Shown here in pieces: positions 1 to 30,638 of a stretch of 64,000 nucleotides of DNA. The notes beneath the pieces are model-generated. The model did not search any database and was not told the origin of the DNA. It saw only the letters and a program-made list of their open reading frames with translations. Every line of letters starts with the position of its first letter. Positions within the stretch are counted from its first letter, which is position 1. Source of the stretch: Escherichia coli (GTDB taxonomy: Bacteria > Pseudomonadota > Gammaproteobacteria > Enterobacterales > Enterobacteriaceae); NCBI RefSeq assembly GCF_003019035.1, contig NZ_CP027447.1; one strand, given 5' to 3'. A program made the translations under genes and the position numbers.

Positions 1-1
1 A

Positions 2-2353: not shown

Positions 2354-2404
2354 TTATGTAACCATTCGTCCTCGTAATATTGCGTTTAATTACATCGTAA
2401 GGGC

Positions 2405-2430
2405 AGCATAAAAACGTTGGTTTGGGGAAG
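2405..2430. other. Invertase crossover site 2, + orientation (variant with GGGG instead of GGGGG)
   Basis: CATAAAAACG TT GGTTTGGGGAAGG at 2408-2430, immediately after the conserved cassette end RPRNIAFNYIVRAA-stop. Confidence 0.55.
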
Positions 2431-2897
2431 GCTCTGCGCTGCCCGTTGGTGTACCTGTTCCATGGCCCTTAGAAACACCGCCAACGGGGTGGCTAAAATG
2501 TAACGGAGCAGCATTTTCTTCTGAAAAGTACCCCAAGCTGGCAAAAGCCTACCCCACCAATAAATTACCGGATTTACGGGGTGAATTTATTCGTGGCTGG
2601 GATGATGGGCGAGGAATTGATGCAGCACGCGCTTTATTGAGCATTCAAACCGGGATGTTGGAAAAACACCGCCATATTGTTGTAGCTAACGATGGATATG
2701 ACACAAAGGATGAATGGGAGTTGGCCACGATTTTCAAAAAAACATATACACAAGGCAGGGGGCTTGATGCCACAAATACAGGAGGGAGTTTGATTCCATC
2801 ACCAACGCTTCATTCACGAGGAAGTATTGGTAACACAGGTGGTAGTGAAACCCGCCCCCGCAATATTGCATTTAACTATATCGTGAGGGCGGCTTAG
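2421..2897 (+). other. Promoterless tail-fibre C-terminal cassette B (silent, + orientation)
   Basis: Frame beginning FGEGSALPVGVPVPWPLETPPTGWLKCNGAAFSSEKYPKLAKAYPTNKLPDLRGEFIRGWDDGRG... ending ...ETRPRNIAFNYIVRAA-stop at 2897; no start codon at its 5' end (ORF track only picks internal Met at 2637). Confidence 0.6.
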
Positions 2898-2903
2898 TTA
2901 TAT

Positions 2904-3515
2904 TCAACTGGCTGCTGCCAGTGGTATTTCCGGCCAGTTGATATCTGATGCCATGTTTATATCCATTGCGTTCAGTGCGTCTATATAATCCAGCACGGCG
3001 TTAAGCCGGGTGGTTTCTGCCTGCGTCAACTTCCGCCCGGCCCGCAACTTCAACTGAATCAGACTAATGGAAGCCATTGCAGTATCAATCAGCGACTGGC
3101 GCTGTGTTTCTGCCGCTTCTACTGCGGCGCTATGCTGTGCCTCGGTATCCGTCACCCATTTTTCACCATCCCATTTATCGTATGGTGTTAACGGGGCGAT
3201 AGTGGTTGTATTTTTCGGGTAGTCACCCAGCGTCGTGATTTCTTCGGTGTTTCCCGTATCAGTGCTATAGACGGTTTCACCACGATGATCTGGCGTATAC
3301 TCCCATGAATTTAAATTCTCCGAACGGCGGATAGCATAGCCCGCTTTATGTGCGCCCGGGGCATCTAAACAGGAATTTGCCGGAATACCGACACCCGCAG
3401 CAAGATATTCAGTTGATTCGGAAATATATTCCCGTGTCTCACCATCATAGTTATAAACGACGATGTTTCCTGCCTGTACGGCAATAAGGTCATCATTTAA
3501 TATCGCGTTATTCAT
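2904..3515 (-). CDS. Tail fibre assembly protein (Tfa / P2 gpG-like chaperone)
   Basis: 203-aa ORF immediately downstream (minus strand) of cassette C with ATGA overlap; position and size as for tfa genes following tail fibre variable segments. Confidence 0.6.
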   Translation of the reverse strand: MNNAILNDDLIAVQAGNIVVYNYDGETREYISESTEYLAAGVGIPANSCLDAPGAHKAGYAIRRSENLNSWEYTPDHRGETVYSTDTGNTEEITTLGDYPKNTTTIAPLTPYDKWDGEKWVTDTEAQHSAAVEAAETQRQSLIDTAMASISLIQLKLRAGRKLTQAETTRLNAVLDYIDALNAMDINMASDINWPEIPLAAAS

Positions 3516-3973
3516 TATGCGGTTCTCACAATATAATTGAAGGCAATATTGCGTGGGCGGGTTTCATTCCCCTCTGAGGATTCCGTTCTGTATTGACTGG
3601 TAAATCTACCGTTAATTGCACCTTGCCGGACGGCGTTATCTGTCGACAACAGACTATCCCCTCCTTTGTCATTTGGCACCAGTACCGTGTTATCCCACGC
3701 ATCCCATGACCGAATATTATGATAATGACTTCCTGTTAACCACCCCTGCATGCTTAAGATGCCCCTTCCGGCATCCACCCCGCGCCCATCATCCCAGCCA
3801 CGAATAAATTCACCCCGTAAATCCGGTAATTTTAACGTTGGGTAAGCCTTTGCCAGTTTTGGATACTTTTCAGAAGAAAATGCTGCTCCGTTACATTTTA
3901 GCCACCCAGTTGGCGGCGTGGCTGAGGGCCATGGAACGGGCACACCAACGGGCAGCGCAGAGCCTTCCCCCAA
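3515..3973 (-). other. Tail-fibre C-terminal cassette C (silent, inverted), followed by tfa
   Basis: Begins with conserved GEGSALPVGVPVPWPSATPPTGWLKCNGAAF... block, ends ...ETRPRNIAFNYIVRTA; starts at crossover site, no ATG. Confidence 0.6.
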
Positions 3974-3990
3974 ACCAACGTTTTCATGCT
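3965..3990. other. Invertase crossover site 3, inverted orientation
   Basis: CCTTCCCCCAAACC AA CGTTTTCATG on + strand (reverse complement of site consensus). Confidence 0.55.
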
Positions 3991-4451
3991 GCCCTTACGA
4001 TGTAATTAAACGCAATGTTATGGGGGCGTGTTTCAGATGCTGTGCGAACTGAGCGAGAGGCGTCGAATGTCCATACAGAAGCACCATATCCTTCAATGAT
4101 CTCAGTTGGTTGTAAGCCTACTGATAATATAGAGTCAGTTTGACTAAATGGTCCTGAATTAAACGCATCTTTAAAAAGCTGAGTACGCCCAAAAGTGCCA
4201 ACTATATTCTGAATAGCGTCAGACTGTGCAGACAGTAGGTTGCGCCCATTATCAACGCCCCGTCCGTCATCCCAGCCGCGAATAAATTCGCCCCGTAAAT
4301 CCGGTAATTTATTGGTGGAGTAGGCCTTTGCCAGATTGGGGTACATTTCAGAAGAAAATGCTGCGCCGTTACATTTCAGCCACCCCGTTGGCGGCGTGGC
4401 TGAGGGCCATGGAACGGGCACACCAACGGGCAGCGCAGAGCCTTCCCCCAA
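3984..4451 (-). other. Tail-fibre C-terminal cassette D (silent, inverted)
   Basis: Same conserved N-terminal block and C-terminal ...ETRPHNIAFNYIVRAA; distinct variable middle. Confidence 0.6.
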
Positions 4452-4468
4452 ACCAACGTTTTTATGCC
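4443..4468. other. Invertase crossover site 4, inverted orientation
   Basis: CCTTCCCCCAAACC AA CGTTTTTATG on + strand. Confidence 0.55.
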
Positions 4469-4890
4469 GCCCTTACGATGTAATTAAATGCGATATTTCG
4501 CGGCCTGACAGCAACAAAATTTATACCATCACCTACAGAGTTACTGGTGAAATTAAATCGTGAAAATCCTGGCTGATTTCCGACGATGCCATCATGAAAA
4601 TTAATTGCGTGCCCCGCACCATCACCTATATTTCCGGCACGCTGAGAAAAATTTGTAGCCTCTTGGCTGCTTAATAATGCTCGCCCATTGTCCACACCTC
4701 GTCCATCATCCCAACCTCGAATAAATTCGCCCCGTAGATCCGGCAATTTATTGGTGGGGTAAACCTTTGCCAGATTTGGGTACTTTTCAGAAGAAAATGC
4801 TGCTCCGTTACATTTCAGCCACCCCGTTGGCGGTGTGGCTGAGGGCCATGGAACAGGTACACCAACGGGCAGCGCAGAGCCTTCCCCCAA
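4462..4890 (-). other. Tail-fibre C-terminal cassette E (silent, inverted)
   Basis: Conserved N block; variable part ...GHAINFHDGIVGNQPGFSRFNF... is paralogous to attached cassette A; ends ...RPRNIAFNYIVRAA. Confidence 0.6.
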
Positions 4891-4907
4891 ACCAACGTTT
4901 TCATGCG
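4882..4907. other. Invertase crossover site 5, inverted orientation
   Basis: CTTCCCCCAAACC AA CGTTTTCATG on + strand. Confidence 0.55.
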
Positions 4908-5410
4908 GCTCTTACGATGTAATTAAACGCAATGTTACGAGGACGGTTTTCGTTTGCAGTTGGAACAATTCTTGAAGCATCAAGGCCAATCACTTTTGGG
5001 TAAACAGCGCCATCTGTTCTTTCTGTCACCATACTTCTGACTAAGGAGAAATAACTATTGTTCGTTGAGGGGCTCAAAGGCACTACTGCCCCCTTAAACG
5101 AACCTACTGATTCCCATATTGAATAATTTTCGGTGTTTACAGTCTTGAACTCACCATAGATATTACGTATGGCATCGCCCTGAGCGGATAATATTGCCCT
5201 CCCCGTATCCATACCACGTCCGTCATCCCAGCCACGAATAAATTCACCCCGTAAATCCGGTAATTTTAACGTTGGGTAAGCCTTTGCCAGTTTTGGATAC
5301 TTTTCAGAAGAAAATGCTGCTCCGTTACATTTTAGCCACCCAGTTGGCGGCGTGGCTGAGGGCCACGGAACGGGCACACCAACGGGCAGTGCAGAGCCTT
5401 CCCCCAAACC
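4901..5410 (-). other. Tail-fibre C-terminal cassette F (silent, inverted)
   Basis: Conserved N block and ...NRPRNIAFNYIVRAA end; ORF track extends it to 5464 by 17 fortuitous codons outside the crossover site. Confidence 0.55.
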
Positions 5411-5424
5411 AACGTTTTCGTTTT
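5399..5424. other. Invertase crossover site 6, inverted orientation (right boundary of invertible region)
   Basis: CCTTCCCCCAAACC AA CGTTTTCG on + strand, ~55 bp upstream of the invertase start. Confidence 0.55.
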
Positions 5425-5478
5425 TATCCCTACCTATACCAACTATGTATTTTTCACGAAACAAAGAGGATGTTTTTT

Positions 5479-6078
5479 ATGCAAATTGGCTATATTCGTG
5501 TGTCAACAAATGACCAGAACACGGATTTACAACGCAATGCACTGAACTGCGCAGGATGTGAACTGATTTTTGAAGATAAAATCAGCGGAACGAAATCAGC
5601 CAGACCGGGATTGAAAAAACTGCTCAGAACGCTATCAGAAGGAGATACGCTGGTTGTCTGGAAGCTGGACAGACTGGGCAGAAGTATGAAACACCTGATT
5701 ACGCTTATTGAGGAATTGCGGGAAAAAGGTGTTAATTTCCGTAGTCTGACGGACAGCATTGACACATCAACACCCATGGGGCGTTTCTTTTTTCACGTCA
5801 TGGGGGCTTTAGCCGAAATGGAACGTGAATTAATTGTAGAGCGTACACTGGCCGGACTGGCAGCAGCACGCGCACAAGGACGCATTGGCGGACGTCGCCC
5901 GAAGTTGACAAAAGAACAACACGAGCAAATAGCGAGGCTGATTAAAAACGGTCATGACAGGAAACAACTGGCGATCATTTACGACATCGGCATATCGACG
6001 ATTTATCGTTATCACCCTGTAGGCGATATACAGGCTGAAGAAACAACCAGGCAGACTCAGGAAAATGAAAACCGCTAA
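5479..6078 (+). CDS. Serine DNA invertase (Hin/Gin/Cin/Pin family site-specific recombinase)
   Basis: MQIGYIRVSTNDQNTDLQRNAL... with catalytic-serine resolvase/invertase N-terminal domain and C-terminal HTH (GISTIYRY); SD AAGAGGA before ATG 5479. ORF-track N-terminal extension from 5272 is the reverse complement of cassette F. Confidence 0.9.
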   Translation: MQIGYIRVSTNDQNTDLQRNALNCAGCELIFEDKISGTKSARPGLKKLLRTLSEGDTLVVWKLDRLGRSMKHLITLIEELREKGVNFRSLTDSIDTSTPMGRFFFHVMGALAEMERELIVERTLAGLAAARAQGRIGGRRPKLTKEQHEQIARLIKNGHDRKQLAIIYDIGISTIYRYHPVGDIQAEETTRQTQENENR

Positions 6079-6104
6079 TCTGACCATTAGCGGTTTTGCG
6101 TTAA

Positions 6105-6599
6105 TCAAAACAGCCCTTTAACGGAGCTGGCCGCGCTGTTAAGGGATGATGTGACCTTATCTTTGAAGCCGGACAGCATATCACTGAACGATGAGGATTG
6201 CAGGCGCTCCCGCAAATCCTCATCACAGCGTTCAAGAGTCAGTGAAAATTCTATCTTTTTCGCCTTACCGTAGCGATCAAACTCGGAGCGGGTCGTATTC
6301 GTTTCAGTCAGTACATACATGCCGTAAATCTGCCCGACACCATCAATCAGAGGCCAGGGGCGTCCTGTATATGCCTGCGTGGTCAGCAGCGAAAGCGACA
6401 CTTCGCCACCTGTAATTTCAGGATAAAGCACGCCAGAAAGCACGATGCGATCATCACCTGCACCGATATACTGCCAGCTTGCTGAGCGGTTTACGCGCTC
6501 ATTTTTCACATGCCGCCAGCTTTTGTTTTGCTGTAACTGCTGATGCGGCAGTGTGCGCAGCTCAAAAACAAACATGCCGTAGATCATCATCATGACCAT
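6105..6599 (-). CDS. P2-like tail protein U
   Basis: ~160-aa ORF directly downstream of the tape-measure gene on the minus strand; N-terminal region resembles P2 gpU. Confidence 0.6.
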   Translation of the reverse strand: MVMMMIYGMFVFELRTLPHQQLQQNKSWRHVKNERVNRSASWQYIGAGDDRIVLSGVLYPEITGGEVSLSLLTTQAYTGRPWPLIDGVGQIYGMYVLTETNTTRSEFDRYGKAKKIEFSLTLERCDEDLRERLQSSSFSDMLSGFKDKVTSSLNSAASSVKGLF

Positions 6600-6605
6600 G
6601 ACTCC

Positions 6606-17441: not shown

Positions 17442-18662
17442 TTAATCTTTCAGCTTACGCATTACCAGCGTGGCGTTGGTGCCGCCGAAGCCGAAGCTGT
17501 TAGACATAACGGTAGTCAGTTCGCGATCGGTCGTTTCGGTCACAATGTTCAGACCCGCAGCCTGCTCGTCCAGCTCTTCAATGTTGATGCTCGGTGCGAT
17601 AAAGCCGTGTTCCAGCATCAGCAGAGAGTAGATAGCTTCCTGTACGCCAGCAGCGCCCAGAGAGTGACCGGTCATTGCTTTGGTTGCAGAAATCGCCGGG
17701 CTCTTATCGCCGAACACTTCACGGATAGCCGCCAGCTCTTTCACGTCGCCAACCGGAGTCGAAGTACCGTGGGAGTTCAGGTAGTCGATTGGGGTATCAA
17801 CACCGTGCATCGCCATCTTCATGCAGCGCACTGCACCTTCGCCAGACGGAGCAACCATGTCTGCGCCATCAGAGGTTGCGCCGTAGCCAACGATTTCAGC
17901 ATAGATGTGAGCACCACGCGCCAGCGCGTGTTCCAGCTCTTCAACCACTACCATACCGCCACCGCCAGCGATAACGAAACCGTCACGGTGAGCGTCGTAA
18001 GTACGGGAGGCTTTTTCCGGGGTGTCGTTGTATTTAGTAGACAGCGCACCCATCGCGTCGAATTCACAAGCCATTTCCCAGCACAATTCTTCGCCGCCAC
18101 CAGCAAACACGATGTCCTGTTTGCCCAGTTGGATCTGCTCTACTGCGTTACCGATACAGTGTGCGGAAGTCGCACACGCGGAGCTGATGGAGTAGTTAAC
18201 GCCGTGAATTTTAAACGGCGTGGCGAGGCAGGCAGAAACGCCGGATGCCATCGCTTTGGTGACCACATACGGGCCAACCGCTTTCAGGCCGCGCGGGCCG
18301 CGCATTGCGTCAGCGCCGAAAACCTGGAAACGCGGGGAGCCGCCGCCGGAACCTGCAATCAGGCCAACGCGCGGGTTATTCTGGTAAGCTTCCGGGGAGA
18401 GGCCAGCATCTGCAATTGCCTGCTCCATAGAAAGGAATGCATAAATGGATGCGTCGCTCATAAAGCGCACAACTTTGCGGTCAATGAGGCCAGTGGTATC
18501 CAGTTTTACGTTGCCCCAGACGTGGCTACGCATGCCGGAATCCTTCAGCTCCTGAGAGAAAGTGATCCCTGAACGTCCTTCACGCAGAGATGCCAGGACT
18601 TCCTGCTGGTTATTACCGATGCTGGAAACAATGCCCAGGCCAGTAATCACTGCACGTTTCAT
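17442..18662 (-). CDS. fabB: 3-oxoacyl-ACP synthase I (KAS I)
   Basis: 406-aa translation [22 protein letters not shown]... recognised as FabB; active-site Cys/His/His context present. Confidence 0.95.
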
Positions 18663-18754
18663 TCAATACCTCTGTAAGTCGCACATAGAGTAAGTTTCGC
18701 ATGCACAATAGCGTACACTTGTACGCCGAACAAGTCCGATCAGCCAATTAATAG

Positions 18755-20827
<2,073 letters not shown>

Positions 20828-20845
20828 TCTGCTCTGGCATTGCTT

Positions 20846-20880
20846 GCCGGATATGGCGTGAACGCCGCATCCGGCACATT
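20846..20880. repeat. REP-like palindrome between mnmC and yfcL
   Basis: CCGGATATGGCGTGAACGCCGCATCCGG imperfect palindrome. Confidence 0.45.
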
Positions 20881-20882
20881 AC

Positions 20883-21161
20883 TTACTGCTGTGACGCCTG
20901 CTGAAACAGGTGTTCCCACATATCGGTCACCAGCGCCTGGTCACGCGGCGACAATTCACCGGCACCAATGGCTTTTTCCAGACTCTGGCTAACGGTTGTA
21001 TGTACCGCCTGAGCGGAGTGGTCGTCACCACTTTCCAGTTCTGCGATGGCTAATGTCAGGTGGCCACGCAAATACCCACTGGCAAACAACTCATCATCAC
21101 TGGCATGGTCAACCATACCGTCGATTAATGCCAGAATGCGTGATTCAAACTCCGCGATCAT
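20883..21161 (-). CDS. yfcL: Uncharacterised protein YfcL
   Basis: 92-aa ORF in conserved position. Confidence 0.7.
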
Positions 21162-21194
21162 CTTCTTTCCTCATTGTAAAACGTGGCGCTGGCT

Positions 21195-21743
21195 TCAGTT
21201 GAGCGCTTCCGGCCACGGGAACTGTTCCGCCGTAAGTTCCGGCGTGTGATAATAATTTTGTAGTGCTTTAATGAAGCGTGCCGGACGTTCGGGAATGCCG
21301 TTTGCCAGATAATCCATCACCTGCGCATGTACCCGCCGTTGAAATACCACGCGGTCCGGTTCGAAATCCCCTTCCAGATTGTCGCAGCTAACATTAAACG
21401 GATATCCCGCCGCCACGCAGAACAACCAGTCCAGCGCCTGCGGCTTCACTTCAACATCTTCAAACTGGCTTTGCGTTTGGGCATCGCGTCCGTCGGGACA
21501 ATACCAGTAGCCGAAATCAACCAGCTCACGGCGCGCTTTCCCGGCAATACACCAGTGCGAAATCTCATGAATTGCGCTGGCATAAAAGCCATGAGCAAAG
21601 ACGATTCGGTTATACGGTACTTCCGCATCAGCAGGAAGATAGATCGGTTCGTCGTCGCCTTTAATCAGACGGGTATTAAAATCATCGGCAAAGCAGCTAT
21701 TAAAAATTTCAATCAACTGCTCATAGTGGTGTGTACTGTTCAT
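21195..21743 (-). CDS. epmC: EF-P hydroxylase EpmC (YfcM)
   Basis: 182-aa ORF MNSTHHYEQLIEIFNSCFADDF...; synteny. Confidence 0.8.
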   Translation of the reverse strand: MNSTHHYEQLIEIFNSCFADDFNTRLIKGDDEPIYLPADAEVPYNRIVFAHGFYASAIHEISHWCIAGKARRELVDFGYWYCPDGRDAQTQSQFEDVEVKPQALDWLFCVAAGYPFNVSCDNLEGDFEPDRVVFQRRVHAQVMDYLANGIPERPARFIKALQNYYHTPELTAEQFPWPEALN

Positions 21744-22552
21744 TAGTTCATCCCCAACCAGTGGAGGATCTCCTGTCCATGGCTATCGTAAAGTAATTTG
21801 GCACTCATCACCGCCGAGACGATAACGATCATCGGGCGGATCAGCTTTTGTCCTTTGCTCAACACCAGTCTTGACCCCATGCGCGCGCCGAGGAACTGCC
21901 CCACCAGCATCACAAATCCTGTCGCCCAAATCACTTTGCCGCCGAGAATAAACAGCAGCAAACCACCGATGTTTGACGTTGCGTTGAGTAATTTGGCGTG
22001 GGCCGTGGCTTTGGCGAGGTTGAATCCGCACAGCGTAACAAAGGCCAGCGCGTAAAACGACCCAGCAGCCGGGCCAAAGAATCCATCGTAAAAACCGACG
22101 CAGCCCCCCGCCACCAGCGCAAATGGCAGTCCATACATCCGGCGCTGGCGATCTTCTTCTCCCAGTTTTGGCATCAGCAAAAAATAGAGGCCGATACAAA
22201 TCACCAGGATCGGTAAAATCTGCCGTAAGACATCGGCCTGAACATACTGCACCAACAGCGCGCCGCTCATTGAGCCGACAAAGGTCATGGCGATATTGAG
22301 TTTCTGATCGCTTAAGCTAACCACTTTGCGCCGAATAAAGTAGATAGTGGCGGAAATAGAGCCGCCGCAGGCTTGCAGTTTATTAGTTGCCAGCGCGTTA
22401 GCCGGAGACATCCCCGCCGCCATCAATGCCGGAATGGTGAGTAACCCACCGCCACCGGCAATCGAGTCGATAAATCCCGCCAGCATGGCGACAAAAAAGA
22501 GAACTCCCAGCAACAGCGGGGAAACCATAAACAGGCTATTAAACGTTTCCAT
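21743..22552 (-). CDS. yfcA: TauE/SafE-family membrane protein YfcA
   Basis: 269-aa hydrophobic ORF, overlapping stops/starts with neighbours. Confidence 0.8.
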   Translation of the reverse strand: METFNSLFMVSPLLLGVLFFVAMLAGFIDSIAGGGGLLTIPALMAAGMSPANALATNKLQACGGSISATIYFIRRKVVSLSDQKLNIAMTFVGSMSGALLVQYVQADVLRQILPILVICIGLYFLLMPKLGEEDRQRRMYGLPFALVAGGCVGFYDGFFGPAAGSFYALAFVTLCGFNLAKATAHAKLLNATSNIGGLLLFILGGKVIWATGFVMLVGQFLGARMGSRLVLSKGQKLIRPMIVIVSAVMSAKLLYDSHGQEILHWLGMN

Positions 22553-23376
22553 TAGATCACGTGCTCATCCAGTAGCGCCTGGCAGGAAGGCGGCAACGGA
22601 GGCGGTGTCTTCTTCTCAGGCTTTGTTGTTCCCGGTTTTGGTGGTTCAAACCAGCTTTGCAGTTCTGCCCCGCAACCATCGCCTGGTGGTGGTAAAGGTT
22701 GATCTTCACACTCCAGACTATCGGCAGGACAACGTAATCGTACATGCATATGCGCGCGATGCTGGAACCAGGGTCGCACTTTACGTAACCAGTCGCGATC
22801 GGTGCCCGCATCAAGGCAAAGTTGTTGTTTAATCGCCGGATTAACAAAAATGCGCGTGACGTCTTTGTCCTGGGCGGCGAGTTTGATCAAGCTGAAAATT
22901 TCTGGCTTCCACAGCGCGGGGACAACGTGTTTACCGTCGCGGGATACTAAGTCCAGTGCTTGCGGGCGCAAGAGTTGCGCGGAGGTCCAGCGTGTTTTCG
23001 GCAGTTGCAGGAAGATATCGACATCCAGCCCGGTCTGGTGGCTGGCGTGACCGCCGTTGAAACGACCACCAGCGGGCATCCCCATATCGCCAATCAGCAC
23101 CGTACCCATGCCCAGATTGCCCACCTGGCGACTCAGACGCTGGATAAACATCACCAGATCCGGGTGCCCGAAATAGCGACGCTGATCGGTACGCATGACC
23201 TGATAATGCTCGGACTGTATCGGCAGCGTGTCAGCGCCGACGATACAACCATTGGAAAAGCTGCCTATCGATTGTGCGCTACCCGGCACAGGTTGGGTTA
23301 TTTTTTGCCACGGCGTCGCTGCCAGGCTGGCACTACTGGCAAGCAGGGCCAGCAGCGCAATCGCGGTTTTGTTCAT
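22552..23376 (-). CDS. mepA: Murein DD-endopeptidase MepA (penicillin-insensitive)
   Basis: 274 aa with signal peptide [20 protein letters not shown] and Pro-rich C-terminus. Confidence 0.85.
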
Positions 23377-23379
23377 TTT

Positions 23380-24465
23380 TTACCAGCGTGGAATATCAGT
23401 CTTCACATCGGCATTTTGCGCCCGTTGCCGTAACAGGTGATCCATTAAAACGATCGCTAGCATCGCTTCCGCGATCGGCACCGCGCGGATCCCAACACAA
23501 GGATCGTGACGACCTTTGGTGATCATCTCAACTTCTTCGCCAAAGCGGTTAATGGTGCGCCCCGGCACGGTAATACTGGAGGTTGGCTTCAGCGCCATAT
23601 GGGCAATGATTTGCTGCCCGCTGCTGATACCGCCAAGAATGCCGCCCGCATGGTTGCTCTGGAATCCGTCTTTGGTGATTTCGTCGCGGTTCTGGCTGCC
23701 ACGCAGCGCTACCACGTCAAAACCATCACCAATTTCTACGCCTTTCACCGCGTTGATGCTCATCAGCGCATGGGCGATGTCGGCATCCAGGCGATCAAAG
23801 ACCGGCTCGCCAAGTCCGGCGGGGACGCCACTGGCAACAACGGTGACTTTCGCGCCGATGGAGTCGCCCTCTTTTTTCAGCGCGCGCATCAGTTCATCTA
23901 ACGCGTCGATTTTGTCCGGGTCCGGGCAGAAAAACGGATTTTGCTCGACCTGCGACCAGTCTTTGATTTCCAGCGGAATGTCACCCATCTGGGTCAGGCA
24001 GCCGCGGATTTCAATACCAAATTTCTCGGCGAGATATTTTTTGGCAATCGCCCCTGCCGCCACGCGCATGGCGGTTTCTCGGGCGGAAGAGCGCCCGCCG
24101 CCGCGATAATCGCGCAGGCCGTATTTTTGTTCGTAAGTGTAATCGGCATGACCTGGACGGAAAACGTCCTTAATCGCACTATAATCCTGAGAACGCTGGT
24201 CGGTATTTTCGATCAACAAACCGATGCTGGTGCCGGTAGTAACACCTTCAAAAACACCGGAGAGAATTTTGACCTGATCCGGCTCACGGCGCTGGGTGGT
24301 ATAGCGCGATGTCCCAGGGCGACGACGATCAAGGTCATGTTGCAGGTCCGCTTCCGTCAGCGGAATGCCTGGCGGAACACCATCGACGATGCAGCCGAGC
24401 GCCAGCCCGTGCGATTCGCCGAAGGTGGTTACGCGAAAGAGTTGTCCAATTGTGTTTCCAGCCAT
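23380..24465 (-). CDS. aroC: Chorismate synthase
   Basis: [20 protein letters not shown]... 361 aa; recognised AroC. Confidence 0.95.
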
Positions 24466-24499
24466 CACGGCTCCGTTATTGTTGTGTTTGCGTGTTTAC

Positions 24500-25432
24500 T
24501 TAATCTTTATAAATCGCGAAATGTTCACGGGCCGCCAGCAGCTGCTCTTTGGTGAGCATAAACACACCATCGCCGCCGTTATCAAACTCCAGCCAGGTGA
24601 ACGGAACATTCGGATATTGTTCCATAAGATGTACCATGCTGTTGCCCACTTCACAAATCAGTACGCCGTCATCCGCAAGGTAATCAGCCGCATTACCGAG
24701 AATGCGACGCGTCAGTTTCAGGCCGTCGGTGCCAGACGCCAGACCCAGTTCCGGCTCGTGGCGGTATTCGTTTGGCAGGTCGGACATATCTTCCGCATCG
24801 ACATACGGCGGGTTAGTGACAATCAGGTCGTACTGCACTTTCGGCAAGTCGCGGAACAGATCGGACCGAATAGGAATGACGTTGTGGATCAGACCGTGTT
24901 CTTCGATATTCTGTTCGGCAACCGCCAGCGCGTCGGGAGAGATATCTACCGCGTCGACTTCTGCATCCGGGAAGGCATAAGCACAGGCAATCGCAATGCA
25001 GCCGCTACCGGTACACATATCTAAAATATGCTGCGGTTGCTTGCTGATGAGTCCGGCAAATTTATTGTTGATCAGTTCACCAATCGGCGAGCGCGGCACC
25101 AGCACGCGTTCATCGACGTAAAATTCATGGCCGCAGAACCAGGCTTTGTTGGTCAGGTAAGCCACCGGAATGCGTTCGTTGACGCGGCGGATCACGCGCT
25201 CAACAATACGGTGTTTTTCGCTGGAGGTCAGACGCGCGGTGCGCATGTCTTCTGGGATATCCAGCGGCAGGTAGAGCGAAGGCAACACCAGTTGCACGGC
25301 TTCATCCCACGGATTATCGGTGCCGTGACCATACCAGATATTTGCCGCGCTGAAGCGGCTCACCGACCAGCGCAACATGTCCTGAATGGTTTGCAGCTCA
25401 TTTACTGCTTCATCAACGAAAATTTTATCCAC
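24500..25432 (-). CDS. prmB: Ribosomal protein L3 N5-glutamine methyltransferase
   Basis: GTG start with SD GGAGG ([13 protein letters not shown]...), 310 aa, NPPY motif; ORF-track 428-aa version overextended. Confidence 0.85.
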
Positions 25433-25597
25433 GTATTCCTCCAGGGCATGATCGCAATAATTTCGGCGGCTAGTTTGCCATGAAGATGACGATAAATCAG
25501 CATTCACACGCGGTGAGTGAGGAAAAATACGTTTTAAGCGATCGATTGTACGGTGAGTCGGGTAAACTGTAGGAAAATTAGAAATAGAGACAGTTAA

Positions 25598-26149
25598 ATG
25601 AAAAAGAAAACAACACTTAGCGAGGAGGACCAGGCGCTGTTTCGCCAGTTGATGGCGGGGACTCGCAAGATTAAGCAGGACACGATTGTCCACCGACCGC
25701 AGCGTAAAAAAATCAGCGAAGTGCCGGTCAAGCGGTTGATTCAGGAGCAGGCCGATGCCAGCCATTATTTCTCTGACGAGTTTCAACCATTATTAAATAC
25801 CGAAGGTCCGGTGAAATATGTTCGCCCGGATGTCAGCCATTTTGAAGCGAAGAAACTGCGGCGCGGTGATTATTCACCGGAGCTGTTTTTGGATTTGCAC
25901 GGTTTGACGCAGCTGCAAGCCAAGCAGGAGTTAGGCGCATTGATTGCCGCCTGCCGCCGCGAACATGTGTTTTGCGCCTGTGTGATGCATGGTCATGGTA
26001 AGCATATTTTGAAGCAGCAAACGCCGCTGTGGCTGGCGCAACATCCCCATGTAATGGCATTTCATCAGGCACCGAAAGAGTACGGTGGTGATGCGGCATT
26101 GCTGGTGTTGATTGAAGTGGATGAATGGCTGCCGCCGGAATTGCCCTGA
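25598..26149 (+). CDS. smrB: Smr-domain ribosome rescue endonuclease SmrB (YfcN)
   Basis: 183 aa, Smr domain signature ([15 protein letters not shown]); divergent from prmB. Confidence 0.85.
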
Positions 26150-26234
26150 CATCATGACGGGCATACGCTTTCACTGACAGACGTCGACGGTTAAGTGTAA
26201 GATTATCCAAACAGAACTCAACGCAGGGCACTCA

Positions 26235-27593
26235 ATGATGAATATCCGCACGCTTAAGCTCACTAATCTGGGGCGGTTTGAAGAACTTGACGTTCATCTG
26301 GCTCCAGTGGAGGAGTTCAAGAGCAATGTGACCGTTTTTATTGGTAATAATGGTGCAGGTAAAACATCAATATTAAAATCGTTGGCAACCAGCCTGAGTT
26401 GGTTCGTTGCCCGAGTTCGTACTGAAAAAGGTAACGGTAGCCCTATTCCTGAAGACGCTATTCTGAACGGTAGGAGTTCGGCGACAATTGAACTTCAGGT
26501 ACTGAATACGCATCCAGCGACGGAGGTCGCTACGCCCTACCGTTGGTTGCTTGCCAGAACGGCCAGTGGGAAAAAATCGACCACCGCCTCCAGCCTGCAA
26601 GAGGCCAGCCAATTGGCTGCGTTTTATCGAGATCAATACACCCAGAATAGCGGGGCATCCTTCCCGCTTATCGCCTTCTATCCCGTAGAACGTGTCGTGC
26701 TGGATGTGCCGTTGAAAATAAAAGAACGTCATAATTTTTTGCAACTGGATGGCTACGATAACGCCCTGAATCAGGGTATTGATTTCCGCCGTTTCTTTGA
26801 GTGGTTTCGCAATCGCGAAGATGCAGAAAATGAATCGGGCTTACCGCAAGACGTTCTGGATAAGCTCAGTACCAGGATAGATCTCGATAACGCCGTCTTA
26901 AATGCATTAACGGCAATCATGGCCTCGTCCCGGGATCGCCAGTTGACCGCCGTCAGAACGGCCATTAGTCGCTTTATGCCAGGGTTCAGCAACTTACGCG
27001 TCAGGCGTAAACCTCGCCTGCATATGTCGATAGATAAAAATGGCCAGACACTGAATGTGCTGCAATTATCGCAGGGTGAAAAATCACTGATGGCGTTAGT
27101 CGGCGATATTGCTCGCCGCCTGGCAATGATGAACCCGATGTTAGAAAACCCGCTAAACGGCGAGGGAATTGTATTAATTGATGAAGTGGACATGCACCTG
27201 CATCCAACATGGCAGCGTACAATCATCCAGCGTCTGACGACAACATTCCCACATTGCCAGTTTGTCTTAACAACCCACTCTCCTTTAGTGATCAGTGATT
27301 GCAAAGATGTGCTGGTTTATTCTCTGGATGATGGCGAATTAACGCAGCTCCCGTCTCTGTATGGGCAAGATGCGAATACTGTGCTTTTGAATGTGATGGA
27401 TACGGATATTCGCAATGCGACAGTGGCAGAAAAACTTAACGATCTTTTGGATCTGATTCAGAAAAACGACTTTATCAACGCTAACGCTCTTCTGAATACG
27501 CTAAGCCTGGAACTTCCTGAAAACCATCTTGAACTGGTGAAAGCCAGAATGCTTCTGCGCAAACAGGAAATTAAACATGCGCGAAATAACTAA
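26235..27593 (+). CDS. ABC-type (AAA_15/AAA_21-like) ATPase, Septu PtuA-like candidate
   Basis: Walker A GNNGAGKTS, signature-like LSQGEKS, Walker B VLIDEVDMHLHP, H-loop TTHSP; RecF/SMC-type N-terminal beta-strand (IRTLKLTNLGRFEEL). Confidence 0.75.
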   Translation: MMNIRTLKLTNLGRFEELDVHLAPVEEFKSNVTVFIGNNGAGKTSILKSLATSLSWFVARVRTEKGNGSPIPEDAILNGRSSATIELQVLNTHPATEVATPYRWLLARTASGKKSTTASSLQEASQLAAFYRDQYTQNSGASFPLIAFYPVERVVLDVPLKIKERHNFLQLDGYDNALNQGIDFRRFFEWFRNREDAENESGLPQDVLDKLSTRIDLDNAVLNALTAIMASSRDRQLTAVRTAISRFMPGFSNLRVRRKPRLHMSIDKNGQTLNVLQLSQGEKSLMALVGDIARRLAMMNPMLENPLNGEGIVLIDEVDMHLHPTWQRTIIQRLTTTFPHCQFVLTTHSPLVISDCKDVLVYSLDDGELTQLPSLYGQDANTVLLNVMDTDIRNATVAEKLNDLLDLIQKNDFINANALLNTLSLELPENHLELVKARMLLRKQEIKHARNN

Positions 27594-28236
27594 AGGGCAA
27601 CCGCCGGCCAGTTTGCAACAGTGGGTGAGAGCAAAACCACGGGATAAAAATGCCAATCAGTGGTTTCAGGAACTTTATGCGCAAAAAAAATGGGATATCG
27701 TTGGCGATCTCAGCCAGCAGTGCGCTCAGGAGCAATTTTATCTCTGTGCTTATTGCTGCGATCGCGTGACAGGTACAAACCGCGATACCGTTAATGAACA
27801 TGTCGAAGCCAGGGATTTAGCCCCTGCTCGCAGTCTGGAATTCACCAATATCGTTGCAAGCTGCAAAACAAAAGGCCAGTGTGACGACTCGCATAAGAAC
27901 CAGCCATTGCTGTTAACGCCGCTTATGCCGGAATGTGAAACCGAGTTTATCTTCAAGATCAGTGGTCGAATTGAAGGGACGACGCCGAAAGCTATCGATG
28001 CGATTAAGGTACTCAACCTTGGCGATAGTGAACGTAATAATCGGGCATTGATTGAAAAACGTAAGCAGCTTTCCGACAGCCTTCTGTGGGCTAATGGCAT
28101 TGACCCTTCAGAGGGGCTTGAGGATGACGACCTGCTGCAAGCGGTTATCGACGAATTACTCACCCCCGTCGACGGTTATCTGGCACCTTTCGCTCCCGTG
28201 GTGGCGAATATTCTAAAAAACTGGATGACCGCATGA
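27577..28236 (+). CDS. HNH-family nuclease, Septu PtuB-like candidate
   Basis: ATG overlaps the ATPase 3' end by 17 nt; CAYCC...NEHVEAR...N...C-x5-C..H arrangement consistent with HNH zinc-ribbon nuclease. Confidence 0.65.
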   Translation: MREITKGQPPASLQQWVRAKPRDKNANQWFQELYAQKKWDIVGDLSQQCAQEQFYLCAYCCDRVTGTNRDTVNEHVEARDLAPARSLEFTNIVASCKTKGQCDDSHKNQPLLLTPLMPECETEFIFKISGRIEGTTPKAIDAIKVLNLGDSERNNRALIEKRKQLSDSLLWANGIDPSEGLEDDDLLQAVIDELLTPVDGYLAPFAPVVANILKNWMTA

Positions 28237-28249
28237 CATAACGGACAAC

Positions 28250-28265
28250 GGGGCCAGATGGCCCC
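28250..28265. terminator. GC-rich hairpin between convergent HNH gene and yfcO
   Basis: GGGGCC-agat-GGCCCC perfect inverted repeat; no clear T-run. Confidence 0.35.
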
Positions 28266-28284
28266 GCGTCGTGTGGTGTATGCG

Positions 28285-29130
28285 CTACAGTTCGTTGAGC
28301 GTGTACTGGAAGCGGCAAGTAGAATCAATCGGCTGCCTGCTGCTGGTATCCACCTGCACCACCATGTCGTGCAGTTGTTTGTCCGTAATGGGGTGCCGGT
28401 TGGGCGTAACCGTAACGCTTGAACTGTCGCAGCCGGAGGTGGAGAACGTGATCATCTCTGCCACAAAGCGGCAGTACGCACCGCGTTCATCCATCTGGCT
28501 GCCGTCGCAAAGCCTGCCGTTTTCCATCAGGAAGGTCGGGAGCGTTTTCTCAATTATGCCGCCCGTCGACTGTAATGACAGCACCTTCGTATACGAAATG
28601 TAATCCTCACTCCACGAAATATCATAGGTGGCCACTGAGACCGGGCAGGTCGAGTTACGCGCCTGCGGGCCGATATAGGGGCCCATTGTTTTTTCTAACG
28701 GCGCAGAACTCTCATTATACGTTGTGACCAGCCATGGGCAGCCATGCACGTCGGCATCATAATAAACGTCGATAGGCATATCGTAACAATCCCACTTGGT
28801 TTTATCCGATTGTTGATCATACTCAGCAAGCCCAGGACAGTTTGACAACGATGTTAAAACAAAATAATTCGAATATAAACTGGGCGGGGTATCACTCCCT
28901 GTCCAGCTAATATTTTCCAGATAACCCACTTGCAACGTGGTGGTGGAGTTCTTATACACACCATGCATAACACCGTCGGGGGTAAGAATATCAAGGTGGT
29001 ATCTGATTTGCGTATTGTAACTGGAAATGCCCGAAATCGTATGCAACGTGGCAATCTTTTTCGCCGCCTGCGCGCCCTCCCCCGCAAACATCAGCAGTAA
29101 CAAACAGGTTATCAAACGGAATATTTTCAT
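28285..29130 (-). CDS. yfcO: Fimbrial-operon protein YfcO (putative adhesin/tip protein)
   Basis: Signal-peptide start MKIFRLITCLLLLMFAGEGAQA (ORF track begins 5 codons earlier at 29145); last gene of yfc operon. Confidence 0.7.
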   Translation of the reverse strand: MKIFRLITCLLLLMFAGEGAQAAKKIATLHTISGISSYNTQIRYHLDILTPDGVMHGVYKNSTTTLQVGYLENISWTGSDTPPSLYSNYFVLTSLSNCPGLAEYDQQSDKTKWDCYDMPIDVYYDADVHGCPWLVTTYNESSAPLEKTMGPYIGPQARNSTCPVSVATYDISWSEDYISYTKVLSLQSTGGIIEKTLPTFLMENGRLCDGSQMDERGAYCRFVAEMITFSTSGCDSSSVTVTPNRHPITDKQLHDMVVQVDTSSRQPIDSTCRFQYTLNEL

Positions 29131-29131
29131 A

Positions 29132-29662
29132 TCAAAGGTACTCAAACGTTGCGGTTAAAGAAGCGGTAAACTCACCCATCGTCACTTCCCGGCCGCTTTT
29201 CGCCTGGAGCCAGGCATTAAAATTCAGATTGTTATCACCGTTACTCAGCACAAAGGTCGCGCCGCTGGTGTTGTTAATCGGCACCGCCGTTCCGTCGGTT
29301 TTTTCCATCCCAATCCCCACGCCCTGCGCCCCAGAGGAGGCATCCAGCGCCAGAAAACCGGGCTGCTCGCTGTCTTCCGTACCGGTCAGCGTCACCCGGA
29401 CCTGATACTCGGCTGGCCCTTTACAATCTTTCAGCTGAAACACCACCGGCACCCGCGCCGACTGCCCGGTCACCATCAGGTCTTTACGGCTGATGGTGGG
29501 GAAATGCACCTCCGCCAGCGTTTCGCCCTGAATCACCAGCGTGCAGGACTTACTGAGTAAATTGCCGTAGAAATGCAGGTTGTCAGCCGCCTGTGTCGTG
29601 CCGCCGTACGCCAGCAGCGCCGCCAGCGCCGCGTAGCGGTAATGTGTGCGAGTCAGATTCAT
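29132..29662 (-). CDS. yfcP: Fimbrial minor subunit YfcP
   Basis: 176 aa with signal peptide and C-terminal beta-strand typical of chaperone-usher pilins. Confidence 0.75.
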   Translation of the reverse strand: MNLTRTHYRYAALAALLAYGGTTQAADNLHFYGNLLSKSCTLVIQGETLAEVHFPTISRKDLMVTGQSARVPVVFQLKDCKGPAEYQVRVTLTGTEDSEQPGFLALDASSGAQGVGIGMEKTDGTAVPINNTSGATFVLSNGDNNLNFNAWLQAKSGREVTMGEFTASLTATFEYL

Positions 29663-30138
29663 TGGTAATCCACCGTTAAGGTTGCCCAGGCAGAGAAGTT
29701 CCCTTCACTGAGCGCCGCGTCGCTGGCTTTTACCGGCACCGCGGTCAGCGTCGGCGGGCTCGCCGGGTCTATTTTCAACTGTTCGCCCACTTTAAACGGC
29801 TGGCCGTTTTGCTGAAGCTCAATCCCCAGGCCAGCGACGTCGGTTTCAATGGCGGCGTCATCGTAACTGGTCTGGTGACCCGTCCAGGTCAGGCTCATCT
29901 CCCAGGCGTCGTCGCGCACATCAGGATCGCAGGTGATGGTGTAAGGCACGTCCTGGCGGAAGTTGTCGCCGTTGATGTTGTCGATGATCACGTTGCTGAA
30001 CGCCACTTCAATGCTCTTACCGTCGCTGATGGTACAGGCGGGCGGCGAAACCAGCGTGCCGTGAAAAGTAACGTCGTTAACCGCGGCCTGCGACAGGCCA
30101 GCAAAACCGTAAAGTAAGCACCACGCGAGTCGTTTCAT
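29659..30138 (-). CDS. yfcQ: Fimbrial minor subunit YfcQ
   Basis: 159 aa, signal peptide, pilin-like. Confidence 0.75.
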   Translation of the reverse strand: MKRLAWCLLYGFAGLSQAAVNDVTFHGTLVSPPACTISDGKSIEVAFSNVIIDNINGDNFRQDVPYTITCDPDVRDDAWEMSLTWTGHQTSYDDAAIETDVAGLGIELQQNGQPFKVGEQLKIDPASPPTLTAVPVKASDAALSEGNFSAWATLTVDYQ

Positions 30139-30638
30139 TGGTAGTCCACCACCATGGTCATGGTCGCGTTAAACTCCGATGCCATCAGTTCCACACCGCT
30201 CTGCTTCACCGGAACAGCTTCGAAGTCTGGCTGAGTACTGGTTTTGAACGGCAGCCAGCTGCTGTTGCCCACGGCCACCAGCGAATGGTCGGTGGCATTC
30301 TGAATGCGAATGCCGAAGCCATCGATCCCGGTACTCAGTACCGTTTCACCATTAATTGTGGTGGTGGTGGCCTGAAGCTGCATTCGCAGGTCGTCGCTGA
30401 CGCTGTTTGAACAGTTCATGGTGTAGCCCACCGGCTGACGGTAGTTAGTGCCATTAATGCCTTTAATGACCACACTGCCGAACTCCACCGCGCTTCCCTG
30501 TATCGAGCAGGGCGGTGGCCCATCCACCAGCACGCGCAGCGTCAGGTTGACGATTTTGCCGCCCGCCATTGCCGGGGAAACGGTCGCGCCACAGGCCAGC
30601 AGTAGCGCGGCAGACCCGGCCAGAAAGAACGCTTTCAT
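30135..30638 (-). CDS. yfcR: Fimbrial minor subunit YfcR
   Basis: Start at internal Met (MKAFFLAGSAALLLACGATVSPAMA signal peptide); pilin-like. Confidence 0.7.
   Translation of the reverse strand: MKAFFLAGSAALLLACGATVSPAMAGGKIVNLTLRVLVDGPPPCSIQGSAVEFGSVVIKGINGTNYRQPVGYTMNCSNSVSDDLRMQLQATTTTINGETVLSTGIDGFGIRIQNATDHSLVAVGNSSWLPFKTSTQPDFEAVPVKQSGVELMASEFNATMTMVVDYQ

What the first reader, a model, noticed from the sequence alone, without database searches (positions are those of the whole stretch)
26150..28284. Two-gene ABC-ATPase + HNH nuclease island between smrB and yfcO: Septu (PtuA/PtuB)-like candidate anti-phage system
Seen in sequence: 26235..27593 encodes a 452-aa protein with Walker A (GNNGAGKTS), ABC signature-like LSQGEKS, Walker B (VLIDEVDMHLHP) and H-loop (TTHSP). 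27577..28236 encodes a 219-aa protein with a CxxC...NEH...N...C-x5-C..H HNH-type arrangement. The second ATG lies 17 nt inside the first gene, so they form a single translationally coupled operon. Established knowledge: an ABC/AAA_15-type ATPase followed by a ~220-aa HNH nuclease is the architecture of Septu (PtuA/PtuB) and of retron-associated PtuAB effectors. Inference: the pair sits between core genes that I recall as adjacent in K-12 and looks AT-richer than its flanks by eye, so it is a strain-specific defence insertion at a chromosomal hotspot. It could equally be an undescribed ATPase-HNH variant rather than canonical Septu, since the ATPase is shorter than typical PtuA.
Basis: partly seen in the sequence, partly recalled or inferred. 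Interest (0 to 1): 0.8.

Follow-up and report, generated by a model that had tools for sequence, protein, structure and literature searches.

The report
Known Septu anti-phage operon (EcB88 type)
This is a two-gene anti-phage system (Septu: PtuA ATPase plus PtuB HNH nuclease) inserted between smrB and the yfc fimbrial operon, and it is about 99% identical to the "Septu EcB88" system cloned from the same locus and characterised in 2026, so it is real but already known.

Summary
Two intact, 17-nt-overlapping ORFs (452 aa ABC-type ATPase; 219 aa HNH protein) lie at 26235..27593 and 27577..28236, between smrB and a yfcO-type fimbrial adhesin gene. These two genes are 70 bp apart in K-12.

The Septu call is also correct. 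PADLOC gives full-length matches to PtuA (E=3.6e-168) and PtuB (E=2.2e-94). There is no reverse transcriptase or retron ncRNA.

The system is not novel. It is an allele of Septu EcB88 of E. coli JBBDAGI-19-0041 (Nat Commun 2026, PMC13096335). PtuA differs at 3 of the 399 residues available and PtuB at 2 of 219. The published clone starts inside smrB at window 25939, so it comes from the same locus. That paper showed defence against T5-like and some T-even phages, loss of defence in K43A, D316A, H75A and N91A mutants (all four residues are present here), and infection-dependent cleavage of the tRNA-Tyr variable loop.

New details found here:
- The intact operon is in about 2.5% of 5,426 complete E. 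coli genomes.
- About 0.9% carry an internal-deletion allele.
- About 8.8% keep only a 270-bp remnant of the ptuB 3' end.
- There are no mobility genes or target-site repeats.

Interest is low.

The parts
25598..26149 (+). smrB (context; left border of the insertion). A divergent allele, 92% nt identical to K-12 smrB.
   Evidence: ORF; annotated smrB in the 100%-identical SCU-301 record; identity classes.
26150..26234 (+). 85-bp leader between the smrB stop and the ptuA ATG. It is absent from K-12 and contains one sigma-70-like site, CTGACA-18 nt-TAAGAT, at 26174..26203. A weak SD-like CAGGG lies 8-12 nt before the ATG.
   Evidence: The promoter match is a consensus hit only, and the number of hits in the region is not above the shuffled expectation. 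The published clone, driven by its native promoter, began 296 nt upstream of the ATG (PMC13096335).
26235..27593 (+). ptuA: 452-aa ABC/SMC-type ATPase. Walker A G37-S45 (K43 codon 26361..26363); signature LSQGEKS 278-284; Walker B VLIDE (D316 codon 27180..27182); H-loop TTHSP 346-350; C-terminal helical extension about 400-452.
   Evidence: PADLOC PDLC00271 PtuA E=3.6e-168, residues 2-450 on model 1-420/421. Pfam AAA_21, AAA_23, SMC_N, AAA_15. PDB relatives: retron Ec83/Ec78 PtuA and Septu PtuA 8EE4. 396 of 399 residues identical to PtuA EcB88 WP_000981116.1.
27577..27593 (+). 17-nt overlap of the ptuA 3' end and the ptuB 5' end. AGGAA lies about 8-12 nt upstream of the ptuB ATG, which suggests translational coupling.
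   Evidence: The overlap is read directly from the sequence; the coupling is inferred.
27577..28236 (+). ptuB: 219-aa HNH (beta-beta-alpha-Me) nuclease. Zinc-type cysteines C57/C60 and C96/C102. Catalytic H75 (codon 27799..27801), N91 (codon 27847..27849) and H106. C-terminal helical domain.
   Evidence: PADLOC PDLC00344 PtuB E=2.2e-94, residues 1-218 on model 1-212/213. NCBIfam retron-Ec78 PtuB 1.3e-26, below cut-off. No Pfam hit. 217 of 219 residues identical to PtuB EcB88 WP_016243072.1.
28237..28284 (.). 48-bp spacer between the convergent ptuB and yfcO-type genes, with a G+C-rich hairpin GGGGCC-AGAT-GGCCCC at 28250..28265. This is possibly a shared terminator. Homology to the K-12 empty site resumes at about 28250, and K-12 has an analogous hairpin, CAGGGGC-GAAT-GCCCCTG.
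   Evidence: The terminator scan did not detect it because there is no T-run, so the terminator function is inferred only.
28012..28284 (+). The part of the island (last 225 nt of ptuB plus the spacer) that survives as an unannotated remnant in about 475 other complete E. coli genomes, for example UTI89, clone D i2 and JCM 5491.
28285..29130 (-). StfH/YfcO-family fimbrial adhesin gene (context; right border). It is the first gene of a yfc-type chaperone-usher operon that is only about 70-77% nt identical to the K-12 operon.
   Evidence: Annotation of the identical SCU-301 record.

Best explanation
The region is a stand-alone type I Septu anti-phage operon (ptuA-ptuB). It is an allele of the experimentally characterised Septu EcB88 and sits at the same smrB-yfc locus.

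Proposed mechanism:
- The two genes are co-transcribed from a promoter in or just upstream of the 85-bp leader. This is inferred; the published clone worked from its native upstream 296 nt.
- They are translationally coupled through the 17-nt overlap. This is also inferred.
- PtuA is an ABC/SMC-type ATPase that oligomerises and holds the HNH nuclease PtuB through its C-terminal helical extension. This is inferred from solved Septu and retron-Ec78 PtuAB structures.
- On infection by susceptible phages (T5-like Demerecviridae, T4, partly T6), the complex becomes active and PtuB cleaves tRNA-Tyr in the variable loop (C48/A49). Translation stops, and phage production and growth of the infected cell are curtailed, as in abortive infection. 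This was shown for the 99%-identical EcB88 allele, as was the requirement for PtuA K43 and D316 and PtuB H75 and N91.
- The phage signal that triggers the system is not known.

The island has no mobility genes. It most likely spreads and is lost by homologous recombination and deletion within a divergent smrB-yfc haplotype.
For: Intact overlapping ORFs with all catalytic motifs.

Full-length PADLOC PtuA (E=3.6e-168) and PtuB (E=2.2e-94) matches.

PtuA is 396/399 identical and PtuB 217/219 identical to Septu EcB88. The 5' 399 nt of the published 2,598-bp clone align collinearly from window 25939 (inside smrB) with 392/399 identity. The clone length equals 296 + 2002 + 300 nt, which fits an operon of the same length as here.

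Functional data for EcB88 come from PMC13096335: defence profile, K43A/D316A/H75A/N91A loss of function, tRNA-Tyr cleavage only on infection, and rescue by phage tRNA-Tyr.

No retron components are present: no Rfam hit in 25000..29500 and no RT-sized ORF between smrB and yfcO.

Structural relatives of PtuA are in the PDB. The role of the PtuA C-terminal extension in docking PtuB is described in PMC12819146.

The island is accessory and chromosomal only: 183 of 5,426 genomes, none on plasmids. The K-12 site is empty. The smrB allele is divergent.
Against: Nothing here tests function of this particular allele. It differs from the tested one by 5 known amino-acid substitutions (PtuA D19E, V98A, I228L; PtuB K138R, V198I) and by one base just after the putative -10 element (26206).

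The last 53 PtuA residues of EcB88 were available only as a noisy OCR of a figure.

The substrate of PtuAB is contested in the literature. Septu of E. coli ATCC 25922 was reported to nick or degrade DNA under ATP inhibition. Purified retron-Ec78 PtuAB nicked plasmid DNA but did not cut tRNA-Tyr in vitro (PMC11555353, PMC12819146).

PtuB has no Pfam hit and no significant single-sequence PDB hit.
Confidence: 0.93

Rival explanations
1. The family is the same (Septu PtuAB), but the physiologically relevant activity is DNA nicking or degradation of phage (or host) DNA by PtuB, released when cellular ATP falls, as proposed for Septu of E. coli ATCC 25922. On this reading tRNA-Tyr loss is secondary.
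For: Literature only. ATCC 25922 PtuAB is reported to target nicked or phage DNA, with ATP inhibiting the nuclease. Released retron-Ec78 PtuAB nicks supercoiled plasmid and fails to cut tRNA-Tyr in vitro (PMC11555353, PMC12819146). PtuB has an HNH motif of the kind found in DNA nickases.
Against: For the 99%-identical EcB88 allele, tRNA-Tyr cleavage at C48/A49 was mapped in vivo and occurred only on infection. Extra phage tRNA-Tyr restored phage growth, and escape phages amplified tRNA-Tyr (PMC13096335). This PtuA is closer to retron Ec83/Ec78 PtuA, which belongs to a tRNA-Tyr-targeting system (216 bits), than to ATCC 25922 PtuA (116 bits).
Confidence: 0.12
2. It is the effector module of a type I-A retron (Ec78/Eco7- or Ec83-like), regulated by a reverse transcriptase and msDNA.
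For: The best NCBIfam names are retron Ec78 PtuA and PtuB, and the best PDB relatives of PtuA are retron Ec83/Ec78 ATPases.
Against: Both NCBIfam scores are below the curated cut-offs (351 vs 500; 94 vs 150). There is no RT ORF and no room for one between smrB and yfcO. There is no Rfam or retron ncRNA hit. PtuA lacks the ~56-60-aa N-terminal extension that retron PtuA uses to bind RT-ncRNA: query residue 4-9 aligns to chain residue 67-68, and EcB88 residue 47 aligns to Eco7 residue 103.
Confidence: 0.01
3. It is a decaying, non-functional copy in this strain, like the deletion and remnant forms found in other strains.
For: The locus is clearly prone to decay. About 47 genomes carry a 187-198-bp internal deletion and about 475 retain only a 270-bp remnant.
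Against: Both ORFs are full length, every tested catalytic residue is present, and there are only 5 conservative substitutions relative to the functional allele. The leader differs at one base from the functional clone.
Confidence: 0.04

Closest known systems
Septu EcB88 of E. coli JBBDAGI-19-0041 (PtuA WP_000981116.1, PtuB WP_016243072.1; Nat Commun 2026, PMC13096335)
   Same: Same locus: the published clone starts in smrB at window 25939. Same gene lengths (452 and 219 aa) and same operon length. PtuA is 396/399 identical over the part available and PtuB is 217/219 identical. The same K43, D316, H75 and N91 residues are present.
   Different: Five amino-acid substitutions (PtuA D19E, V98A, I228L; PtuB K138R, V198I) and 7 nt differences in the first 399 nt of the clone, including one at 26206 next to the putative -10 element. 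The last 53 PtuA residues could not be compared exactly.
Septu of E. coli ATCC 25922 (PtuA 465 aa, PtuB 243 aa; PDB 8EE4/8EE7/8EEA)
   Same: Same stand-alone two-gene architecture of an ABC ATPase plus an HNH nuclease. PtuA aligns end to end (query 3-445 on chain 2-458, E=2.2e-32). The HNH core of PtuB aligns weakly (8ee7_C, E=0.22).
   Different: It is a distant lineage at the sequence level. It is reported to act on DNA under ATP inhibition and to form a PtuA hexamer (PMC12819146, PMC11555353), whereas the EcB88 type cleaves tRNA-Tyr.
Type I-A retron effectors PtuA/PtuB (retron Ec78/Eco7, Ec83; e.g. PDB 9E8Z, 9KJX, 9VH1)
   Same: These are the closest solved PtuA relatives (216 bits to Ec83 PtuA). 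Retron-Eco7 cleaves the same target, the tRNA-Tyr variable loop (PMC13096335, PMC11555353). The PtuB HNH core is similar (NCBIfam NF041761, 1.3e-26).
   Different: There is no RT, ncRNA or msDNA. PtuA lacks the N-terminal extension and is about 90-100 aa shorter. NCBIfam equivalog cut-offs are not reached.
Other ABC-ATPase + nuclease defence pairs (PARIS AriA/AriB, OLD/Gabija family)
   Same: An ABC/SMC-type ATPase is paired with a nuclease effector. There are weak AriA hits (E about 1e-6).
   Different: The nuclease partner here is HNH, not TOPRIM. The PADLOC best hits are all PtuA/PtuB.

Membership tests
Septu (type I, PtuA/PtuB) | Two adjacent co-oriented genes, ptuA followed by ptuB | tested here: met
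   26235..27593 and 27577..28236, both on the + strand, with a 17-nt overlap.
Septu (type I, PtuA/PtuB) | PtuA: ABC/SMC-type ATPase matching PtuA profiles, with Walker A, signature, Walker B and H-loop | tested here: met
   PADLOC PDLC00271 E=3.6e-168 over 1-420 of 421 model positions. Pfam AAA_21/AAA_23/SMC_N/AAA_15. Motifs at residues 37-45, 278-284, 313-319 and 346-350.
Septu (type I, PtuA/PtuB) | PtuB: HNH nuclease matching PtuB profiles, with the catalytic H...N...H and Cys pairs | tested here: met
   PADLOC PDLC00344 E=2.2e-94 over 1-212 of 213 model positions. H75, N91, H106, C57/C60 and C96/C102 are present. Caveat: no Pfam hit and TIGR02646 is below its cut-off (42.1 vs 52.15).
Septu (type I, PtuA/PtuB) | Stand-alone: no associated reverse transcriptase or ncRNA | tested here: met
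   No RT-like ORF between smrB and yfcO. No Rfam match in 25000..29500 at E<=1.
Septu (type I, PtuA/PtuB) | Confers phage resistance that depends on the ATPase and HNH residues | not testable with these tools
   Shown for the ~99%-identical EcB88 allele (K43A, D316A, H75A and N91A abolish defence; PMC13096335). Not tested for this allele.
Septu (type I, PtuA/PtuB) | PtuA oligomer binds PtuB via the PtuA C-terminal extension and the PtuB C-terminal domain | not tested
   The C-terminal ~53 residues of PtuA and the C-terminal helical region of PtuB are present. Complex formation is known from 8EE7 and the Ec78 structures (PMC12819146). No structure prediction was run here.
Type I-A retron (Ec78/Eco7, Ec83) | Reverse transcriptase gene and msr-msd ncRNA adjacent to ptuAB | tested here: not met
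Type I-A retron (Ec78/Eco7, Ec83) | PtuA and PtuB reach the NCBIfam equivalog cut-offs (NF041760, NF041761) | tested here: not met
   351.3 bits against a cut-off of 500; 93.8 bits against a cut-off of 150.
Type I-A retron (Ec78/Eco7, Ec83) | PtuA N-terminal extension that contacts RT-ncRNA | tested here: not met
   The alignments start at chain residue ~67 of the retron PtuAs. EcB88 residue 47 aligns to Eco7 residue 103.
PARIS / OLD-Gabija type ATPase-nuclease pairs | TOPRIM-domain nuclease partner or domain | tested here: not met
   The partner is an HNH protein. All top PADLOC hits are PtuB or HNH_I-A. AriA gives only weak similarity to the ATPase (E about 1e-6).

The most novel reading that the evidence does not exclude
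The locus records repeated decay of a tRNA-cleaving Septu. It is intact in about 2.5% of complete E. coli genomes, internally deleted in about 0.9%, and reduced to a 270-bp remnant in about 8.8%.

The most novel reading not excluded is that the recurrent internal-deletion allele is not dead. That deletion precisely removes the PtuA C-terminal PtuB-docking extension and creates a new in-frame ATG for a PtuB lacking 12 N-terminal residues. It could be a re-wired, uncoupled ATPase/nuclease pair with altered regulation. Alternatively, the five substitutions in the window allele could shift phage specificity relative to EcB88.
Probability: 0.07. Interest if true: 0.35.

Novelty: already known. Interest (0 to 1): 0.13.

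Why it matters
This adds little new biology. The system, its locus, its catalytic residues and its cellular target were published in 2026 for an allele about 99% identical.

The practical value is in annotation. RefSeq still labels these genes 'AAA family ATPase' and 'hypothetical protein' in most genomes. They can be safely renamed ptuA/ptuB (Septu, EcB88 type).

The population picture found here may be useful to people studying the cost and turnover of tRNA-targeting defence systems in E. coli. That picture is a rare intact operon, a recurrent microhomology deletion, a widespread 3' remnant in B2-type strains, and linkage to a divergent smrB-yfc haplotype without mobility genes.

Tried and rejected
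(1) Retron effector module. Rejected: no RT or ncRNA, NCBIfam scores below cut-offs, and no N-terminal extension on PtuA.

(2) Pfam for PtuB. No hit even at E<=10.

(3) Single-sequence PDB search for PtuB. Nothing at E<=0.01. At E<=10 there were only non-significant alignments to the HNH cores of retron Ec83 PtuB and Septu PtuB 8EE7, plus spurious VCP-like ATPase hits.

(4) Signs of site-specific insertion. No target-site duplication or terminal inverted repeats at the borders; the short repeats found are chance-level. There is no integrase or transposase in the island.

(5) Promoter and terminator scans. One promoter-like site falls in the leader, but the number of hits in the region is not above the shuffled expectation. 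The G+C-rich hairpin after ptuB has no T-run and was not called.

(6) Plasmid and phage origin. The closest plasmid-collection PtuA relatives are 57-68% identical (Aeromonas, Enterobacter, Paraburkholderia), and phage hits are <=32%.

(7) A literature search for the smrB-yfcO site as a named defence hotspot found nothing relevant.

(8) I first assumed the window was strain SCU-301 throughout. That is wrong for 1..14883, which is prophage, but correct for 14884..64000.

(9) I did not run the large protein-database searches or structure prediction. Near-identity to a published, characterised system made them unnecessary.
Full report
OBSERVATION.

All quoted motifs are present:
- In the first protein: GNNGAGKTS at residues 37-45 (K43), LSQGEKS at 278-284, VLIDEVD at 313-319 (D316) and TTHSP at 346-350.
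- In the second protein: C57-x2-C60, N73-E74-H75, N91, C96-x5-C102 and H106.

The pair lies between smrB (25598..26149, +) and a StfH/YfcO-family fimbrial adhesin gene (from 28285, -). The island is 48.4% G+C against 53.6% and 56.0% for the 5 kb on either side.

WHAT IT IS. PADLOC profiles give full-length matches:
- PtuA model PDLC00271: E=3.6e-168, residues 2-450 on positions 1-420 of 421.
- PtuB model PDLC00344: E=2.2e-94, residues 1-218 on positions 1-212 of 213.

Pfam sees the ABC/SMC-type ATPase (AAA_21, AAA_23, SMC_N, AAA_15) but nothing in PtuB. NCBIfam's retron-Ec78 PtuA and PtuB equivalogs hit both proteins below their curated cut-offs (351 vs 500 bits; 94 vs 150 bits).

There is no reverse transcriptase ORF, and no Rfam or retron ncRNA match in 25000..29500. 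In the PDB, PtuA is nearest to the retron Ec83 and Ec78 ATPases (E=9e-63 and about 1e-46). Those alignments begin at about residue 67 of the retron proteins, so this PtuA lacks their N-terminal extension. It is more distantly related to the stand-alone Septu PtuA 8EE4 (E=2e-32). The locus is therefore a stand-alone Septu, not a retron effector module.

IT IS ALREADY CHARACTERISED. A full-text search found Nat Commun 2026;17:3468 (PMC13096335), which studies 'Septu EcB88' from E. coli JBBDAGI-19-0041. Its mutants (PtuA K43A and D316A; PtuB H75A and N91A) carry the same residue numbers as this window's proteins.

Supplementary Data 8 of that paper gives:
- PtuA, WP_000981116.1, 452 aa. The first 399 residues are stored.
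- PtuB, WP_016243072.1, 219 aa.
- The first 399 nt of the 2,598-bp PCR clone.

Compared with those sequences, the window's PtuA differs at 3 of 399 residues (D19E, V98A, I228L) and PtuB at 2 of 219 (K138R, V198I). The clone's 5' end aligns from window 25939, inside smrB, with 392/399 identity. The clone length equals 296 nt upstream + 2,002 nt operon + 300 nt downstream, which is the geometry found here. This is the same system at the same chromosomal locus.

MECHANISM, shown for the near-identical allele (PMC13096335):
- Expressed from its native promoter in DH10B, the system protects mainly against Demerecviridae (T5-like) phages, strongly reduces T4 plating, and acts partly on T6 and not on T2.
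- Walker A, Walker B and HNH mutants lose defence.
- Infected cells stop growing, in the manner of abortive infection.
- E. coli tRNA-Tyr is cleaved in the variable loop (C48/A49) only on infection.
- Extra phage tRNA-Tyr, or its SegB-driven amplification, lets T6 escape.

Steps inferred by me:
- Co-transcription from the 85-bp leader. One sigma-70-like site lies at 26174..26203, but the hit count in the region is not above chance.
- Translational coupling through the overlap.
- Docking of PtuB on the PtuA C-terminal extension, by analogy with the 8EE7 and Ec78 structures (PMC12819146).

The phage trigger is unknown.

A real uncertainty remains about the substrate. Septu of ATCC 25922 is reported to act on DNA under ATP inhibition. 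Purified Ec78 PtuAB nicks plasmid DNA but does not cut tRNA-Tyr in vitro (PMC11555353, PMC12819146). I keep this as the main rival for the mechanism, at low probability for this lineage.

The 2,135-bp query matched 658 of 5,426 complete E. coli genomes. Every match was chromosomal and single-copy.
- 183 genomes cover at least 80% of the query.
- 136 genomes contain the ptuA/ptuB junction segment 27420..27620, and so the undeleted operon.
- About 47 genomes therefore carry an internal deletion (for example CREC-544 and MRY15-131). It arose between two near-repeats, GC[G/A]ACAGTGG. It removes PtuA residues 400-452 and PtuB residues 1-12 and leaves ORFs of 404 and 207 aa. Because the PtuA C-terminal extension is the PtuB docking element, this allele is probably inactive. 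That is an inference.
- About 475 genomes (for example UTI89, clone D i2 and JCM 5491) retain only window 28012..28284, which is the last 225 nt of ptuB plus the spacer. This remnant is unannotated.
- K-12 has a clean empty site: smrB stop, 70 bp with its own hairpin, then yfcO.

No target-site duplication, terminal repeat or mobility gene is present.

The flanks are unusual. smrB is only 92% identical to K-12 at the nucleotide level, and only 234 genomes have an allele at least 95% identical to this one. The adjacent yfc operon is about 70-77% identical to the K-12 operon, while the surrounding core is 94-99% identical. This pattern fits an old insertion that travels with a divergent smrB-yfc haplotype by homologous recombination and is being lost by deletion. 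That is an inference, and I did not cross-tabulate it genome by genome.

Related PtuAs on plasmids are at most 68% identical (Aeromonas, Enterobacter, Paraburkholderia). Phage hits are at most 32% identical.

The Septu call, the accessory status and the K-12 adjacency are all confirmed.

The hedge that this might be an undescribed variant because PtuA is 'shorter than typical' is not supported. 452 aa is the length of the published EcB88 PtuA, and the best PADLOC PtuA model has 421 positions. Only retron PtuAs, at about 550 aa, are longer.

'Hotspot' is not supported in the sense of a site that receives varied cargo. I saw only this system, its remnants, or nothing.

VERDICT. This is a real, intact, correctly interpreted Septu operon, but it is already known: an allele of a published, mechanistically characterised system. 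Interest is low. The residual novelty lies only in the decay series at the locus and in the still-open questions of trigger and substrate.

Noticed in passing
window 1..14883: This stretch is not collinear with K-12 or with strain SCU-301, where pdxB abuts flk. It is a myovirus (P2-like) prophage tail module: tail protein 210..851, tail fibre 848..2353, tail-fibre assembly 2904..3515 (-) followed by four short ORFs at 3515..5464 (-) whose identity I did not check (possibly alternative tail-fibre assembly cassettes), tape measure 6606..9449 (-), sheath 10506..11690 (-), and a tail protein (PHROG phrog_52; gpD-like by position, not checked) at 11716..12957 (+). It ends with a type II/orphan DNA methyltransferase at 13984..14775 (+), right next to flk (15005..16000). 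The best E. coli match covers only 87% at 96% identity. From 14884 onward the window is 100% / 99.99% identical to SCU-301.
   Followed up: partly
window 28285..34760: The yfc-type chaperone-usher fimbrial operon next to the island is a strongly divergent haplotype, about 70-77% nt identical to K-12 yfcOPQRSUV, while the surrounding core genes are 94-99% identical. smrB on the other side is 92% identical to K-12 with an almost unchanged protein. UTI89 carries a third haplotype, 88% identical over 28012..28681.
   Followed up: partly
L005 3086..4889 (CREC-544) and L004 4638..6441 (MRY15-131); corresponds to window 27427..27613 missing: A recurrent internal-deletion allele of the Septu operon is present in about 47 complete genomes. 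The deletion lies between two GC[G/A]ACAGTGG near-repeats. It truncates PtuA to 404 aa, with the C-terminal 53 residues replaced by GESKTTG, and creates a new ATG for a 207-aa PtuB starting MQQWVRAK.
   Followed up: partly
L002 5001..5268 (UTI89); corresponds to window 28012..28284: An unannotated 270-bp remnant of the 3' end of ptuB sits between smrB and the yfcO-type gene in about 475 complete E. coli genomes, including UTI89, clone D i2 and JCM 5491. It is preceded by about 48 bp that is unrelated to the window's leader.
   Followed up: partly
window 45459..45533: tRNA-Arg (CCT), argW, is the only tRNA in the window. In K-12 it is followed by intS and the CPS-53 prophage. Here, as in SCU-301, it is followed directly by dsdC-dsdXA, emrKY and evgAS, so this attachment site is unoccupied.
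   Followed up: no
H85-H87 (Enterobacter sp. MGH plasmids NZ_CP072963.1, NZ_CP072954.1, NZ_CP072962.1): PtuA homologues of about 60% identity lie on large Enterobacter plasmids, next to a restriction endonuclease S subunit gene. This suggests that Septu of this lineage also travels in plasmid defence islands.
   Followed up: no
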